This document shows positions 49,351-52,257 of a stretch of 64,000 nt of DNA, one piece after another (position 1 is the first letter of the stretch; each line of letters opens with the position of its first letter). Below the pieces are notes generated by a model that worked only from the letters and a program-made list of their open reading frames with translations, was not told the origin of the DNA and searched no databases. The DNA comes from a virus (taxonomy: Duplodnaviria; Caudoviricetes), in IMG/VR virus record IMGVR_UViG_3300034170_000057. One strand, given 5' to 3'. The translations under genes and the position numbers were made by a program.

Positions 49351-49358
49351 TGTAAATA
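49351..49358 (+). promoter_or_regulatory. TGTAAATA putative late-type promoter
   Basis: intergenic, right after a stop, followed by a GCGCC/GGCGC hairpin and an operon. Confidence 0.55.
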
Positions 49359-49415
49359 TCAAAGGTGGCGCCTTTTAACGGGCGCTTTCCTAAATCCATT
49401 AAGGAACCGAATGAA

Positions 49416-50078
49416 GTGAACAAAAAAGTCATTGCTTTGGCCGCTGTAAGTTTGGCCCTTCTCGCAGGTTGCGACGACCAGCCAGATTATGAAGAGCAAC
49501 AGGCATACGTGGACGAAGAGGCCGGTCAGGCTACGCGTACACAAATTGCTGAAGACGAAAAAGATTTGCAGGCCACCGTTAAGGAACTGCAATCGAAAGA
49601 TCCATCGGTAAAAGACGCTTATTACGGCGTCGGCCCGAACGGTGAAAAACAACTGCATATCGTGCGTGAAGAGGCGAACGGAAAAAGCAGTGATTCCATC
49701 TGGCCTATGGTGGGCGGTGCAGCCATGGGTGCCCTCGGTGGCTACGCGCTGGCAAAAATGATGAACCAGAACGGCGGTTATCAGAATTACCAGCAGCAAA
49801 ACCAGCCACTGCAAACCACGCAATGCAATGAACAAGATCGCCGCCGTTGCCGTAATGGTGGATCGTCGGCTTATGCCACGGCACTGATGAATAATAACCG
49901 TGGTGCTGTACGTGCAAATCCTGCGTATCAAACCAACATGAACAACCGTGTTTCACAATGGCGCCAGAGCCCAGCAAGTGCCCCGGCCTCGTATCAAACG
50001 GTAGCCAATAGCCGCGCCTCCGGTATCATGACGGGCGGTGGTGGGCGTACAGCTGCACACGGCGGTAACGGCGGTTAA
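49416..50078 (+). CDS. DUF1190/YgiB-like lipoprotein
   Basis: GTG start after AAGGA; lipobox LLAGC; IWPMVGGAAMGALGGYALAKMM; Gly/Asn/Gln-rich tail. Confidence 0.65.
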   Translation: MNKKVIALAAVSLALLAGCDDQPDYEEQQAYVDEEAGQATRTQIAEDEKDLQATVKELQSKDPSVKDAYYGVGPNGEKQLHIVREEANGKSSDSIWPMVGGAAMGALGGYALAKMMNQNGGYQNYQQQNQPLQTTQCNEQDRRRCRNGGSSAYATALMNNNRGAVRANPAYQTNMNNRVSQWRQSPASAPASYQTVANSRASGIMTGGGGRTAAHGGNGG

Positions 50079-50107
50079 TTCATTCGCATTTTTCAAGGAA
50101 GTTTTTC

Positions 50108-51475
50108 ATGCATTGCACGTATCACAATATCGGTTTCGACCTGAACAAAATGATGGTCGAAGAATTGCCGTGGACCCAAGCCTTCTACCGCGAAATGCCG
50201 AAACCTGAATCGACGGCTGACGCGGAATTCTACCAAGACGTGAAAGATTATTTCGCGTTCCCTCTCGAACACAGTGCCAACATGCCGGTCTACAATTTGC
50301 ACCTGAGTTCCTGTGCAAAAATCGAAACCGTTTTCGAATCCGCATACGCAATGCTGGTCGAAGCTGTGGGCAAGCTGTTCAACGAATCCAACGATACGCT
50401 GATGCACTATATGGGCTGCGATTTCCTGCGCAAGCACCCGTATTTCATCGACTACGCCAAGTTCACCTATCGCGACCATGGTTCGGCCCGCCAAGCAATC
50501 TACGGGCGCTTTGACGCTGCATTCGATCCTGTGACTGAGGAAGTTACGGGTATTTACGAATTCAACGGCGACACGCCTACCATGCTTTTCGAATCCGTAG
50601 CGTTGCAGAATCGCGTCTGTGAATCCGTGACGGGCGATGTTGAATTGCAGCTGAATAGTTTCTATCCGCTGCTGCAACAAATGTTCGAAGACATGGGCGA
50701 GATTCCGGGCACCGCTGCTGTGATCCATGACAGCAAATCCTTCGAGGATACCGCGACCTGCGAAGTGCTGGCGCAAATCATCGGTGAGCATAACGTCTGC
50801 CTGTTTACTGACGTTTCCGAAATCGACTACGACTTCAACAACAAAACCAATCCGTTCGCGGTTGGCGACGATAATCTCTCGGTTATTTTCGCATTGGTTC
50901 CGTGGGAAGAAATGGTCGAGGGTTTCCCGCAGGCGTACAAGGAATGGGCCAACTGGGCTAACCACGTCACAATGCTGGAACCGGCGTGGCGTTGGTTCAC
51001 CAGTAACAAAGGCATTTGGGCCTACATCACGCACCTAATGTTTACCAACGATGAATTCCACGCGAAATACGGCATGCTTCCCGTGCTGGAAACCTACGTG
51101 GATAACCCGTTAGTTTTCACGGGCAAAACCGGCTACGTTTCGAAACCGAAAGTCGGTCGCATGAGTACCAACATCGAAATCCACAAGGCCGATGGCACCG
51201 TGGAATTCGCGACCGATGGCCCGTACAAAGACGACAAGGTTTATCAGGTCTACACAGCGCCGCACAAAGTCGATGGCCGGAACAATTTCATTATCGGAAT
51301 GTTCATGGTTCCGGATATTGCATCCGATTACAATTCGCTGAAACAAGCGACGGCAGCTACGCTGTGCATTCGCGAATTCGACTCGCCTGTATTGGGCGTG
51401 AAGAACGAGCGATTTATTCCACACGTTCTGATCGACGATTTGCCGGAACCGGACGAAGAAAACTTCGAGGGCTAA
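50108..51475 (+). CDS. glutathionylspermidine synthase-like ATP-grasp ligase (YgiC/YjfC family)
   Basis: YGRFD, YEFNGDTPT, LEPAW...SNK, KPKVGRMSTNI. Confidence 0.85.
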   Translation: MHCTYHNIGFDLNKMMVEELPWTQAFYREMPKPESTADAEFYQDVKDYFAFPLEHSANMPVYNLHLSSCAKIETVFESAYAMLVEAVGKLFNESNDTLMHYMGCDFLRKHPYFIDYAKFTYRDHGSARQAIYGRFDAAFDPVTEEVTGIYEFNGDTPTMLFESVALQNRVCESVTGDVELQLNSFYPLLQQMFEDMGEIPGTAAVIHDSKSFEDTATCEVLAQIIGEHNVCLFTDVSEIDYDFNNKTNPFAVGDDNLSVIFALVPWEEMVEGFPQAYKEWANWANHVTMLEPAWRWFTSNKGIWAYITHLMFTNDEFHAKYGMLPVLETYVDNPLVFTGKTGYVSKPKVGRMSTNIEIHKADGTVEFATDGPYKDDKVYQVYTAPHKVDGRNNFIIGMFMVPDIASDYNSLKQATAATLCIREFDSPVLGVKNERFIPHVLIDDLPEPDEENFEG

Positions 51476-51478
51476 ACA

Positions 51479-51736
51479 ATGTTTATCGTTTATCTGATTC
51501 TGCTGTTGTGGCTCGCTTACGCCTGCTGGTTCAGCTACACCCTGACCCAAGAGCAAGTGGGTGACGAACGTTACTGGTATAACCCCATTGTGTTTTTCAT
51601 CGGTGGTGTTTTTGCGGCGGTCATGATCGTGACCGAGTTTATCGAGGAATGCATGGCCCATGCTGCACGCGCATTGAACAAACGCGCCCTGCGCCGCCGT
51701 GACGAAAAACGCGCAGCAAACCAAAAATCCGATTAA
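51479..51736 (+). CDS. two-TM membrane protein
   Basis: hydrophobic segments, basic tail. Confidence 0.65.
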   Translation: MFIVYLILLLWLAYACWFSYTLTQEQVGDERYWYNPIVFFIGGVFAAVMIVTEFIEECMAHAARALNKRALRRRDEKRAANQKSD

Positions 51737-51743
51737 CTGAAAC

Positions 51744-51769
51744 GGTGCCTGCCTTGATCGGTGGGCACC
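51744..51769 (+). terminator. intergenic hairpin (terminator or stabiliser)
   Basis: GGTGCCTGCC-TTGATC-GGTGGGCACC, 10 bp. Confidence 0.55.
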
Positions 51770-51790
51770 ATTATAATTAGGCAAGGGACA

Positions 51791-52000
51791 ATGAAATATT
51801 TAGTGCTGTTGATCGTTTTGGTTTTCTTGGTTTATGGCGTCCTGTACGCAATCAAAGACAAGCGCACCAACACGCCCATTCATGAAAATGCAGTGTTCGA
51901 TTTCGCCAGCGCTGTGCTGTGTGGTTTCTACATTCTGGCCTCCCACATCTACGATGGCGCGAAGACCATCTACAGGGATGCGCGTGAGGATTTGAAGTGA
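51791..52000 (+). CDS. small membrane protein
   Basis: AGGGACA leader; two hydrophobic segments. Confidence 0.65.
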   Translation: MKYLVLLIVLVFLVYGVLYAIKDKRTNTPIHENAVFDFASAVLCGFYILASHIYDGAKTIYRDAREDLK

Positions 52001-52257
52001 CGAAATATTTAATCGTTTTATTCGCACTGGTTCTGGCCGGATGCAGTAGCGAAACGCACCAAGAAAAATCAGCACGCGAAGCCAAACTGCATCGGCAAAC
52101 TTTGTGTGCCATGCACAGCCTGACCTATCTGTCCGAGTACCACGAAAAAAGCATCTGGCCTTCGCGCAGTCACCGCGTGGTTTACGGTTCGGTCTGCACC
52201 AATGCCCAAGGCCAGCGAATTATCATCAAAGACAATGGGAACCAATATGGAAGCTGA
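51997..52257 (+). CDS. lipoprotein
   Basis: lipobox VLAGC; GTGA overlap. Confidence 0.7.
   Translation: MTKYLIVLFALVLAGCSSETHQEKSAREAKLHRQTLCAMHSLTYLSEYHEKSIWPSRSHRVVYGSVCTNAQGQRIIIKDNGNQYGS

What the first reader, a model, noticed from the sequence alone, without database searches (positions are those of the whole stretch)
49351..51736. Self-contained lipoprotein + ATP-grasp ligase operon (ygiB/ygiC-like)
Seen: TGTAAATA and a hairpin, then a lipoprotein (LLAGC, Gly-rich hydrophobic mid-segment, Asn/Gln-rich tail ending AAHGGNGG), then a ligase with intact RxD, ExN, SNK and KP..GR motifs and no amidase domain, then a small TM gene and a closing hairpin. Known: bacterial ygiBC/yjfMC pairs have this layout, and YgiC/YjfC lack proven Gsp synthetase activity, so the substrate is unknown. 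Inference: the ligase amidates the partner's Gly-Gly C-terminus or adds a polyamine or peptide, giving a late envelope-modification system.
Basis: partly seen in the sequence, partly recalled or inferred. Interest (0 to 1): 0.7.

Follow-up and report, generated by a model that had tools for sequence, protein, structure and literature searches.

The report
Phage lipoprotein and polyamine-ligase gene pair
A giant Pseudomonas-type phage carries its own diverged copy of the bacterial YgiB/YgiC gene pair, a membrane lipoprotein and an enzyme that joins polyamines to peptide ends. Comparison across phages points to the lipoprotein's own tail end as the enzyme's still unknown target.

Summary
A Lu11-type promoter motif and hairpin are followed by a lipoprotein gene (49416-50078), an intact ATP-grasp ligase without an amidase domain (50108-51475), a small two-helix membrane gene (51479-51736) and a terminator-like hairpin.

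The ligase belongs to the GspS/YgiC/YjfC family. All catalytic residues are kept and the predicted fold matches YjfC, but it sits in a phage-only clade. The lipoprotein is a diverged DUF1190 (YgiB/YjfM) relative. Pfam misses it, and intermediate sequences link it.

The pair is near-obligate: about 78 of 79 viral ligase loci have such a partner. Partners linked to intact ligases end in small residues, mostly Gly-Gly. Variants ending in Arg-Arg(-Arg) either lack a ligase or, in one case, sit beside a ligase with 8 of 20 invariant positions changed.

This supports, but does not prove, polyamine amidation of the partner's C-terminus (about 40%). Membrane topology is unresolved.

The scan found this pair before in at least 11 other genomes. 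The genes are ordinary; the substrate lead is the value.

The parts
49351..49358 (+). TGTAAATA, a Lu11-type putative middle/late promoter motif
   Evidence: It occurs 8 times in the window against 1.4 expected. The same core lies in Lu11's annotated promoter and upstream of the homologous cassette in HRDY3 and Lu11.
49363..49391 (+). Stem-loop between the motif and the ribosome-binding site. It is either the terminator of the upstream gene or a 5'-UTR hairpin.
   Evidence: RNA fold -16.9 kcal/mol, z -2.16.
49416..50078 (+). Lipoprotein gene (220 aa), a diverged DUF1190 (YgiB/YjfM-like) protein. Signal peptide and lipobox Cys19 lie at 49416-49472, the Gly-rich hydrophobic segment at 49698-49754, and the flexible C-terminal end (residues 208-220) at 50037-50075.
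   Evidence: Matches phrog_13808 at 2e-44. Profile search and Pfam bridging link it to DUF1190, as does hhalign to YgiB. AlphaFold2 model; charge and hydropathy analysis.
50108..51475 (+). ATP-grasp acid-amine ligase (455 aa) of the GspS/YgiC/YjfC family, in a phage-specific clade, with no amidase domain
   Evidence: PF03738 4e-41 and phrog_6215 6e-104. Sequence match to PDB YgiC 7uk8 at 2e-12. Catalytic residues aligned to GspS. AlphaFold2 pLDDT 89.6. Foldseek top hit YjfC at 2e-22. Tree.
51479..51736 (+). Small membrane protein (85 aa, two hydrophobic helices), starting 3 nt after the ligase stop. It is conserved only in the closest Lu11-like relatives.
   Evidence: ORF list. tblastn hits directly after the ligase in 5 of 25 related loci. 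31% identity to the HRDY3 protein in the same position. No family match.
51744..51769 (+). Terminator-like hairpin closing the cassette
   Evidence: 10-pair stem with 7 GC pairs. Fold -19.4 kcal/mol, z -3.42. The tail after the stem is ATTATAATTA, not a clean T-run.

Best explanation
This is a phage-borne, diverged version of the bacterial DUF1190-lipoprotein / YgiC-YjfC-ligase module, transcribed from a Lu11-type middle/late promoter.

Shown:
- The ligase has the complete GspS-family ATP-grasp catalytic set and the YgiC-type DTPT loop.
- The lipoprotein has a lipobox, a Gly-rich hydrophobic segment and a cationic tail whose last ~13 residues are predicted to be flexible.
- The two genes travel together almost without exception.

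Inferred mechanism: the cytoplasmic ligase phosphorylates a C-terminal carboxylate to an acyl-phosphate and couples it to a polyamine (spermidine or putrescine), as GspS does with the glycine of glutathione. The carboxylate it acts on is the Gly/Ser-rich C-terminal end of its partner lipoprotein. The result is an envelope protein with a polycationic end.

Phages whose partner instead ends in encoded Arg-Arg-Arg have lost the ligase or let it decay. This suggests that an encoded oligo-arginine end can replace the added polyamine.

The downstream role is not determined. Candidates are membrane stabilisation or stress control during late infection, or exclusion of other phages.
For: Ligase family and intact chemistry:
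- The residue aligned to GspS Glu391, which is key for spermidine binding (PMC6272389), is Glu. GspS Ser337 aligns to Thr158.
- GspS-family chemistry activates a C-terminal Gly carboxylate (PMC6272389).
- YgiC and YjfC are peptide-spermidine ligases in vitro (Pederick 2023, cited in PMC11762307).

Coupling of the two genes:
- 21 of 25 viral loci with the lipoprotein have the ligase directly downstream.
- 32 of 32 viral loci with a ligase at >=31% identity have the lipoprotein directly upstream.
- 20 of the 21 remaining 'partner-less' loci hold a short ORF with an RGGFG...small-residue tail (15 with a lipobox), mostly just upstream of the ligase.
- The two proteins split into matching clades.

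C-terminus:
- All 47 ligase-linked partners in IMG/VR end in small residues: GG 25, GS 9, SS 7 and others.
- E. coli YgiB ends SMGG and YjfM ends HWGG. 117 of 120 close YgiB relatives (>=82% identical) end in GG.
- The last 13 residues are disordered in the model.
- Arg-ended variants lack the ligase across whole phage records, two of them complete, or within +/-6 kb (L136, L141).
- The one complete Arg-ended partner with a ligase (L144) has 8 of 20 otherwise invariant ligase positions changed, including the DTP loop and R351. The other 46 distinct ligase/partner-tail combinations keep at least 19 of 20.

Topology: the tail carries a net charge of about +10 and the N-part about -10 in 98-99% of 142 family members. 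This fits a cytoplasmic tail.
Against: - There is no biochemical evidence for any protein substrate.
- The extreme C-terminus varies in sequence and length among close relatives (GNGG, SSGS, GFSS, GGGGM, GGGT). This is unlike ubiquitin-type Gly-Gly ends.
- L144 and L139 show that Arg-ended partners can still sit next to a ligase gene.
- The co-variation rests on few and related lineages.
- The hydrophobic segment is weak for a membrane helix: the peak 19-residue Kyte-Doolittle mean is 1.2, and my hand sum on the Hessa scale is about +5 kcal/mol.
- The AlphaFold2 model (pTM 0.64) places strand 133-137 in a sheet that can only be formed with strands 65-97. Both flanks of the hydrophobic segment would then lie on one side of the membrane. 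If the whole mature protein is periplasmic, a cytoplasmic ATP-dependent ligase could reach the tail only before export.
- E. coli YgiB is described as a predicted outer-membrane lipoprotein (PMC11762307).
Confidence: 0.4

Rival explanations
1. The ligase makes a small-molecule peptide-polyamine (or other acid-amine) conjugate in the cytoplasm. The lipoprotein is an obligate but non-covalent partner, such as a membrane anchor, sensor, regulator or binder or exporter of the product. Together they adjust polyamine pools or envelope stress during late infection.
For: - The only demonstrated activity of the nearest characterised enzymes is on free peptides (Pederick 2023, cited in PMC11762307).
- The AlphaFold2 model suggests one globular domain on one side of the membrane.
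- The extreme C-terminus is variable.
- Bacterial homologues sit in PspA / K+-channel / DUF350 membrane-stress operons (PMC11237479). Phage versions echo this: a K+ channel follows the ligase in Vibrio phage VPMCC14, and an SPFH lipoprotein lies upstream in Aeromonas phage 25.
Against: - It does not explain why the partner's end is small-residue in every case with an intact ligase.
- It does not explain why Arg-ended variants go with ligase loss or decay.
- No candidate small substrate or exporter is encoded in the cassette.
Confidence: 0.33
2. The two genes are an auxiliary cassette with separate roles that is merely inherited as a block from bacteria. For example, the lipoprotein could act in superinfection exclusion and the ligase in polyamine metabolism.
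For: - Phage lipoproteins often act in exclusion (general knowledge).
- PHROGs files the ligase under 'moron, auxiliary metabolic gene and host takeover'.
- Lipoprotein-only phages exist.
Against: - Adjacency is kept on the same strand, with gaps of tens of bases or a small intervening ORF, from 80% down to 25% identity and across unrelated phage types: jumbo phages, Plaisancevirus, Ionavirus and T4-like phages.
- In this sample the ligase virtually never occurs without the partner.
Confidence: 0.12
3. The enzyme is a true glutathionylspermidine synthetase, as database annotations say.
For: GenBank and PHROG product names and the PF03738 match.
Against: - The GSH-site loop of GspS (DSASC, with Ser335, Ser337 and Cys338) is DTPTM here, as in YgiC and YjfC. 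Those enzymes lack Gsp synthetase activity (Sui 2012, cited in PMC11762307 and PMC12506659).
- The NCBIfam GspSA equivalog scores 27.8 bits against a cut-off of 882.
- There is no amidase domain.
- The tree places it far from GspS.
Confidence: 0.03
4. The ligase serves DNA hypermodification with polyamines, as might be guessed from its presence in Delftia phage PhiW-14.
For: A homologue is present in PhiW-14. That phage's DNA carries putrescinyl-thymine (my own knowledge, not checked here).
Against: - The same pair occurs in many phage types. I know of no such DNA modification in them, and this was not checked here.
- It is always linked to a lipoprotein, not to nucleotide-metabolism genes.
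Confidence: 0.02

Closest known systems
E. coli YgiB-YgiC (tolC-ygiBC operon) and YjfM-YjfC (yjfIJKLMC cluster); YgiC/YjfC structures PDB 7UK8/7UKA and 7UK6/7UK7
   Same: - The two-gene order is the same: a DUF1190-type lipoprotein, then a stand-alone GspS-type ATP-grasp ligase without an amidase.
- The ligase fold matches (TM-score 0.69/0.80 to YjfC).
- The catalytic residues and the DTPT loop match.
- The partner has a lipobox, a Gly-rich hydrophobic segment and a cationic tail ending in Gly-Gly.
   Different: - The ligase is only about 20-24% identical to YjfC/YgiC in the structural alignments (25-29% to the YgiC-like viral ligases). It sits in a phage-only clade on a long branch and carries a ~60-residue N-terminal extension and two insertions.
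- The lipoprotein falls below Pfam's DUF1190 threshold.
- It lacks the Cys-rich N-domain and instead has a KDPSVKDAYY..GEK..VVRE helix-sheet domain.
Homologous cassettes in cultured phages: Pseudomonas phages HRDY3 and Lu11 (jumbo), phiPMW-like Plaisancevirus, Delftia phage PhiW-14, Vibrio phage VPMCC14
   Same: The lipoprotein-ligase pair is the same (68%/64% identity to HRDY3, 63%/62% to Lu11). The promoter motif is the same in HRDY3 and Lu11. In HRDY3 and Lu11 a small membrane gene follows the ligase.
   Different: - There is no nucleotide-level match to any deposited phage.
- HRDY3 and Lu11 have an extra small membrane gene between the promoter and the lipoprotein.
- Deposited records call the ligase 'glutathionylspermidine synthase'. 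They call the partner 'hypothetical protein' or, in one record, 'integral membrane protein'.
E. coli bifunctional glutathionylspermidine synthetase/amidase (GspSA; PDB 2IO7-2IOB)
   Same: The ATP-grasp synthetase fold and the acyl-phosphate chemistry on a C-terminal Gly carboxylate. The equivalents of R316, D318, E330, N332, K498, K533, R538, R598 and E391 are all kept.
   Different: No CHAP amidase domain, a different GSH-site loop, and linkage to a partner lipoprotein.
Eukaryotic ubiquitin/SUMO C-terminal Gly conjugation to spermidine (PMC12270671)
   Same: A precedent for a protein's C-terminal glycine carboxylate being amide-linked to spermidine.
   Different: The enzymology is unrelated: an E1/E2/E3 thioester cascade rather than a single ATP-grasp ligase. 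There is no homology.
RimK (ATP-grasp ligase that extends the C-terminus of ribosomal protein S6)
   Same: A conceptual analogue: a bacterial ATP-grasp enzyme that modifies the C-terminal carboxylate of one dedicated protein (my own knowledge, not tested here).
   Different: A different ATP-grasp family that adds glutamates rather than an amine. Its partner is not a lipoprotein.

Membership tests
GSP_synth / GspS-type ATP-grasp ligases (PF03738) | Profile match above the curated threshold | tested here: met
   141.9 bits against a cut-off of 29.3, covering profile positions 26-370 of 371.
GSP_synth / GspS-type ATP-grasp ligases (PF03738) | Catalytic and nucleotide-site residues (GspS R316, D318, E330, N332, K498, K533, R538, R598) | tested here: met
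   All are conserved in the alignment with GspS, YgiC and YjfC. Seven of the eight are invariant in 26 viral homologues; R422 (= R598) is kept in at least 90%.
GSP_synth / GspS-type ATP-grasp ligases (PF03738) | Fold | tested here: met
   AlphaFold2 pLDDT 89.6, pTM 0.90. Foldseek hits: YjfC 2e-22, GspS 1e-20, YgiC 3e-18, trypanothione synthetase 6e-15.
YgiC/YjfC subfamily (peptide-spermidine ligases) | Stand-alone synthetase without an amidase domain, with a DTPT loop instead of the GspS DSASC loop | tested here: met
YgiC/YjfC subfamily (peptide-spermidine ligases) | Falls within the YgiC/YjfC clade | tested here: not met
   A quick ML tree puts it in a separate phage-only clade of 22 rows (support 100). 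A branch of 2.3 changes per site separates it from the clade holding YgiC, YjfC and GspS. The careful tree search did not finish.
YgiC/YjfC subfamily (peptide-spermidine ligases) | Adjacent DUF1190-type partner gene | tested here: met
YgiC/YjfC subfamily (peptide-spermidine ligases) | ATP-dependent ligation of spermidine to peptide C-termini | not testable with these tools
   Needs an enzyme assay. The primary paper (Pederick 2023) is not held in the library.
DUF1190 (PF06693; YgiB/YjfM) | Direct profile match above threshold | tested here: not met
   No Pfam hit at E <= 0.1 for the window protein.
DUF1190 (PF06693; YgiB/YjfM) | Homology through intermediates or profile-profile comparison | tested here: met
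   - 16 of 113 proteins recovered by the family profile carry PF06693.
- P0058, P0064 and P0061 match the family profile at 1e-28, 3e-24 and 4e-27, and match PF06693 at or above its cut-off.
- hhalign to YgiB gives E 6e-5. With signal peptides removed it gives E 1.7e-4 at only 49% probability.
- An ESM Atlas neighbouring cluster has PF06693 in 14% of its members.
DUF1190 (PF06693; YgiB/YjfM) | Architecture: lipobox, Gly-rich hydrophobic mid-segment, Ser/Gly/Arg tail ending in small residues | tested here: met
Bifunctional GspSA / trypanothione synthetase-amidase | N-terminal CHAP amidase domain | tested here: not met
   Only PF03738 is found. The protein begins about 60 residues before the synthetase core.

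The most novel reading that the evidence does not exclude
DUF1190 lipoproteins are the long-sought physiological substrates of YgiC/YjfC-type ligases. The ligase amidates the protein's flexible Gly/Ser C-terminus with a polyamine, giving a protein C-terminal polyamination system shared by bacteria and phages. An encoded oligo-arginine C-terminus is its genetic substitute in lineages that have lost the ligase.
Probability: 0.35. Interest if true: 0.8.

Novelty: new member of a known kind. Interest (0 to 1): 0.5.

Why it matters
The physiological substrate of YgiC and YjfC is an open question in E. coli envelope and polyamine biology. The tolC-ygiBC and yjf operons are linked to membrane stress and metabolic shutdown.

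Phages give a stripped-down natural experiment with three states:
- a near-obligate two-gene pair;
- lipoprotein-only variants whose tail end is oligo-arginine;
- one lineage in which an Arg-ended partner sits beside a decaying ligase.

This makes a precise and cheap test possible: mass spectrometry of the C-terminal peptide with and without the ligase. If the answer is positive, it would define a new protein modification and explain why diverse large phages carry the module. If negative, the pair remains an ordinary, already annotated auxiliary cassette of unknown role.

Tried and rejected
- A megablast of the region against 50,697 phage records found nothing. Only protein-level relatives exist.
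- No whole genome is held for the window.
- The search for related loci with the broad alignment A2 failed because no stretch was conserved enough.
- The YgiB homologue search returned only relatives at 82% identity or more. It was useless for a diverse DUF1190 profile.
- The genome search could not use a W handle as its centre. It also could not read the metagenome records of L136, L141 and L144, so ligase absence there is known only within +/-6 kb.
- Foldseek (no hit with E <= 0.001) and VIA-align wide (best Z 4.2) gave no fold match for the lipoprotein model. This does not show that the fold is new.
- The primary YgiC/YjfC paper is not held.
- No cultured phage carries the Arg-ended variant.
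- I first read the IMG/VR data as a clean rule: small-residue end with ligase, Arg end without. The metagenome scan broke that rule (L144, L139). It was replaced by the weaker statement about ligase loss or decay.
- A complex prediction of ligase plus tail could not be run with the tools offered.
Full report
WHAT IS THERE

The window comes from an uncultured jumbo phage of the Lu11/HRDY3 type that infects Pseudomonas. The closest protein matches are to these two phages, and the flanking genes are syntenic with HRDY3 (an Arc/AmrZ-like regulator upstream and a Nudix hydrolase downstream). There is no nucleotide-level match to any deposited phage.

The cassette reads as follows.
- TGTAAATA at 49351-49358.
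- A hairpin at 49363-49391 (-16.9 kcal/mol, z -2.2).
- AAGGA, then a GTG start at 49416.
- The lipoprotein gene, ending at 50078.
- The ligase gene at 50108-51475.
- An 85-aa membrane protein gene at 51479-51736, starting 3 nt after the ligase stop.
- A 10-pair hairpin at 51744-51769 (z -3.4).

TGTAAATA occurs 8 times in the window against 1.4 expected. Seven copies are on the + strand and six of them follow an (A/G/T)AC. The motif is the core of the 'putative middle/late promoter' annotated in Lu11, and it precedes the homologous cassette in Lu11 and HRDY3. Timing is therefore inferred to be middle or late. It was not measured.

THE LIGASE

The ligase matches PF03738 at 4e-41 and phrog_6215 at 6e-104, with no amidase domain. 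By sequence, the best solved relatives are E. coli YgiC (2e-12), trypanothione synthetase and YjfC.

An alignment with GspS, YgiC and YjfC shows every catalytic residue in place: R134/D136, E151/N153, K301, K346, R351 and R422. The YgiC-type DTPT loop replaces the GSH-site loop DSASC of GspS. A Glu aligns with GspS Glu391, the key spermidine-binding residue, and Thr158 aligns with Ser337.

The AlphaFold2 model is confident (pLDDT 89.6, pTM 0.90). It matches YjfC, GspS, YgiC and trypanothione synthetase.

A quick tree places the window enzyme in a phage-only clade of 22 sequences. That clade includes Lu11, HRDY3, phiPMW, PhiW-14 and VPMCC14. A long branch separates it from the clade that holds YgiC, YjfC, GspS and other viral ligases such as that of Aeromonas phage 25.

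The enzyme is therefore an apparently active acid-amine ligase. It is most unlikely to make glutathionylspermidine, despite the database names.

THE LIPOPROTEIN

The protein has a canonical signal peptide and lipobox (LLAGC, with Asp at +2), an acidic N-part, the Gly-rich hydrophobic segment IWPMVGGAAMGALGGYALA, and a cationic tail rich in N, Q, G, A and R that ends AAHGGNGG.

Pfam gives no hit, but several lines tie it to DUF1190, the family of YgiB and YjfM.
- A profile of 25 close relatives recovered 116 cluster representatives from 1.84 billion proteins.
- 16 of 113 of these carry PF06693.
- Three proteins match both the phage profile (1e-24 or better) and PF06693 at its cut-off.
- hhalign to YgiB gives E 6e-5. 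With signal peptides removed it gives 1.7e-4, at only 49% probability.
- The protein upstream of the ligase in Aeromonas phage 25 is a plain DUF1190 (7e-22).
- The equivalent proteins in PhiW-14, VPMCC14 and phiPMW share the same architecture and end in SSGG, SRGG and SSGG.

I conclude that it is a diverged DUF1190 branch. It has lost the Cys-rich N-domain and carries a conserved KDPSVKDAYY..GEK..VVRE helix-sheet unit instead.

The AlphaFold2 model (pLDDT 77, pTM 0.64) has a long helix, three strands, a low-confidence hydrophobic stretch, a fourth strand, three helices and a disordered last 13 residues. No solved fold matches it.

THE COUPLING

- Of 25 IMG/VR loci found with the lipoprotein, 21 have the ligase directly downstream.
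- Of 79 IMG/VR loci found with the ligase, all 32 at >=31% identity have the lipoprotein directly upstream. A further 26 have a DUF1190 gene beside the ligase.
- 20 of the remaining 21 have a nearby short ORF with an RGGFG...small-residue tail (15 with a lipobox) that my profiles had missed.

In this sample the ligase virtually never occurs without a partner. The two proteins also split into matching clades.

THE C-TERMINUS

- All 47 distinct ligase-linked partners in IMG/VR end in small residues: GG 25, GS 9, SS 7, GA 2, GE 2, GT 1 and AS 1.
- E. coli YgiB ends SMGG and YjfM ends HWGG.
- 117 of 120 close YgiB relatives (>=82% identical) end in GG.

A longer variant of the lipoprotein ends in Arg-Arg or Arg-Arg-Arg.
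- In the four IMG/VR records that carry it, two of them complete 183-kb genomes, no GSP_synth gene exists anywhere.
- Two further metagenome loci (L136, L141) have none within 6 kb.
- The rule is not absolute. L144 (ending RRR) and L139 (ending SSSR) do have an adjacent ligase.
- In L144, 8 of the 20 positions invariant across 26 diverse viral ligases are changed, including D155E, T156V, P157T and R351F. The other 46 distinct ligase/partner-tail combinations keep at least 19 of 20.
- The partial L139 ligase also has an altered DTP loop.

The simplest reading is that the ligase's function is tied to the partner's small-residue end. An encoded oligo-arginine end would then make the ligase dispensable. 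This rests on few and related lineages.

MECHANISM AND DOUBT

GspS-family chemistry phosphorylates a C-terminal glycine carboxylate and couples it to the N1 amine of spermidine (PMC6272389). YgiC and YjfC ligate spermidine to peptides in vitro, and their physiological substrate is unknown (PMC11762307). Ubiquitin and SUMO C-terminal glycine-spermidine conjugates exist in eukaryotes (PMC12270671).

Polyamine amidation of the partner's flexible end is therefore chemically natural and fits the comparative data.

The main obstacle is topology. The ligase has no signal peptide and needs ATP, so the tail must be cytoplasmic or be modified before export.
- In favour of a cytoplasmic tail: the N-part carries about -10 and the tail about +10 net charge in 98-99% of 142 family members, and the Arg-ended variants reach +20 or more.
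- Against it: the hydrophobic segment is weak for a membrane helix, and the AlphaFold2 model pairs strand 133-137 with the N-terminal sheet. E. coli YgiB is described as a predicted outer-membrane lipoprotein.

I put covalent modification of the partner at about 0.4, a small-molecule product with a non-covalent partner at about 0.33, and unrelated roles at about 0.12.

CONTEXT AND NOVELTY

Bacterial homologues lie in PspA / K+-channel / DUF350 membrane-stress operons (PMC11237479). Phage cassettes echo this with a K+ channel in VPMCC14 and an SPFH lipoprotein in Aeromonas phage 25.

The phage ligase was noted as 'unusual, function unclear' in phiPMW, Lu11 and PhiW-14 (PMC5587285). A YgiB-like lipoprotein was noted in phage Moon (PMC4319498).

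No paper found here proposes the partner as the substrate.

Earlier agents of this scan reported the same pair, and the same lead, in at least 11 other genomes. The genes are thus a new member of a known kind.

Noticed in passing
window 4507, 20125, 34862, 41925, 49351, 53697, 55593 (+ strand); 28952 (- strand): The motif (A/G/T)AC-TGTAAATA is over-represented (8 copies against 1.4 expected). At several sites, such as 34862, 49351 and 53697, a stem-loop follows directly. This suggests a composite promoter-plus-hairpin or terminator-promoter unit shared with Lu11 and HRDY3.
   Followed up: partly
L030:4950-5936, L032:4809-5819 (IMG/VR); L136, L141, L144 (metagenome): A long variant (280-336 aa) of the lipoprotein family ends in Arg-Arg(-Arg) and has tails of net charge +20 or more. 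In L030 and L032 a 141-153-aa multi-pass membrane protein follows instead of a ligase. The L144 copy sits beside a ligase with 8 of 20 invariant positions changed.
   Followed up: partly
L008:4230-4886 (Vibrio phage VPMCC14); L009:658-1581 (Aeromonas phage 25): A K+-channel-like protein (Ion_trans_2, 3e-11) directly follows the ligase in VPMCC14. An SPFH/Band-7 lipoprotein lies upstream of the DUF1190-ligase pair in Aeromonas phage 25. Both mirror the bacterial Psp/yjf operon partners described in PMC11237479.
   Followed up: no
window 51761-52000 and 51997-52257: Two more small envelope genes follow the cassette. One encodes a 79-aa membrane protein; its real start is probably the ATG near 51792, after the hairpin. 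The other encodes an 86-aa lipoprotein (lipobox VLAGC). Neither has a family match.
   Followed up: no
L001:2599-2796 (HRDY3); L002:2405-2761 (Lu11): In HRDY3 and Lu11 the promoter motif is followed by an extra small gene before the lipoprotein (hydrophobic in HRDY3). This gene is absent from the window, where the motif directly precedes the lipoprotein.
   Followed up: no
window 50108-50290 (ligase residues 1-60) and residues ~277-290, ~318-330, ~403-413: The phage-clade ligases carry a confidently modelled N-terminal extension of about 60 residues and several insertions that are absent from YgiC, YjfC and GspS. These could be partner-recognition elements.
   Followed up: no
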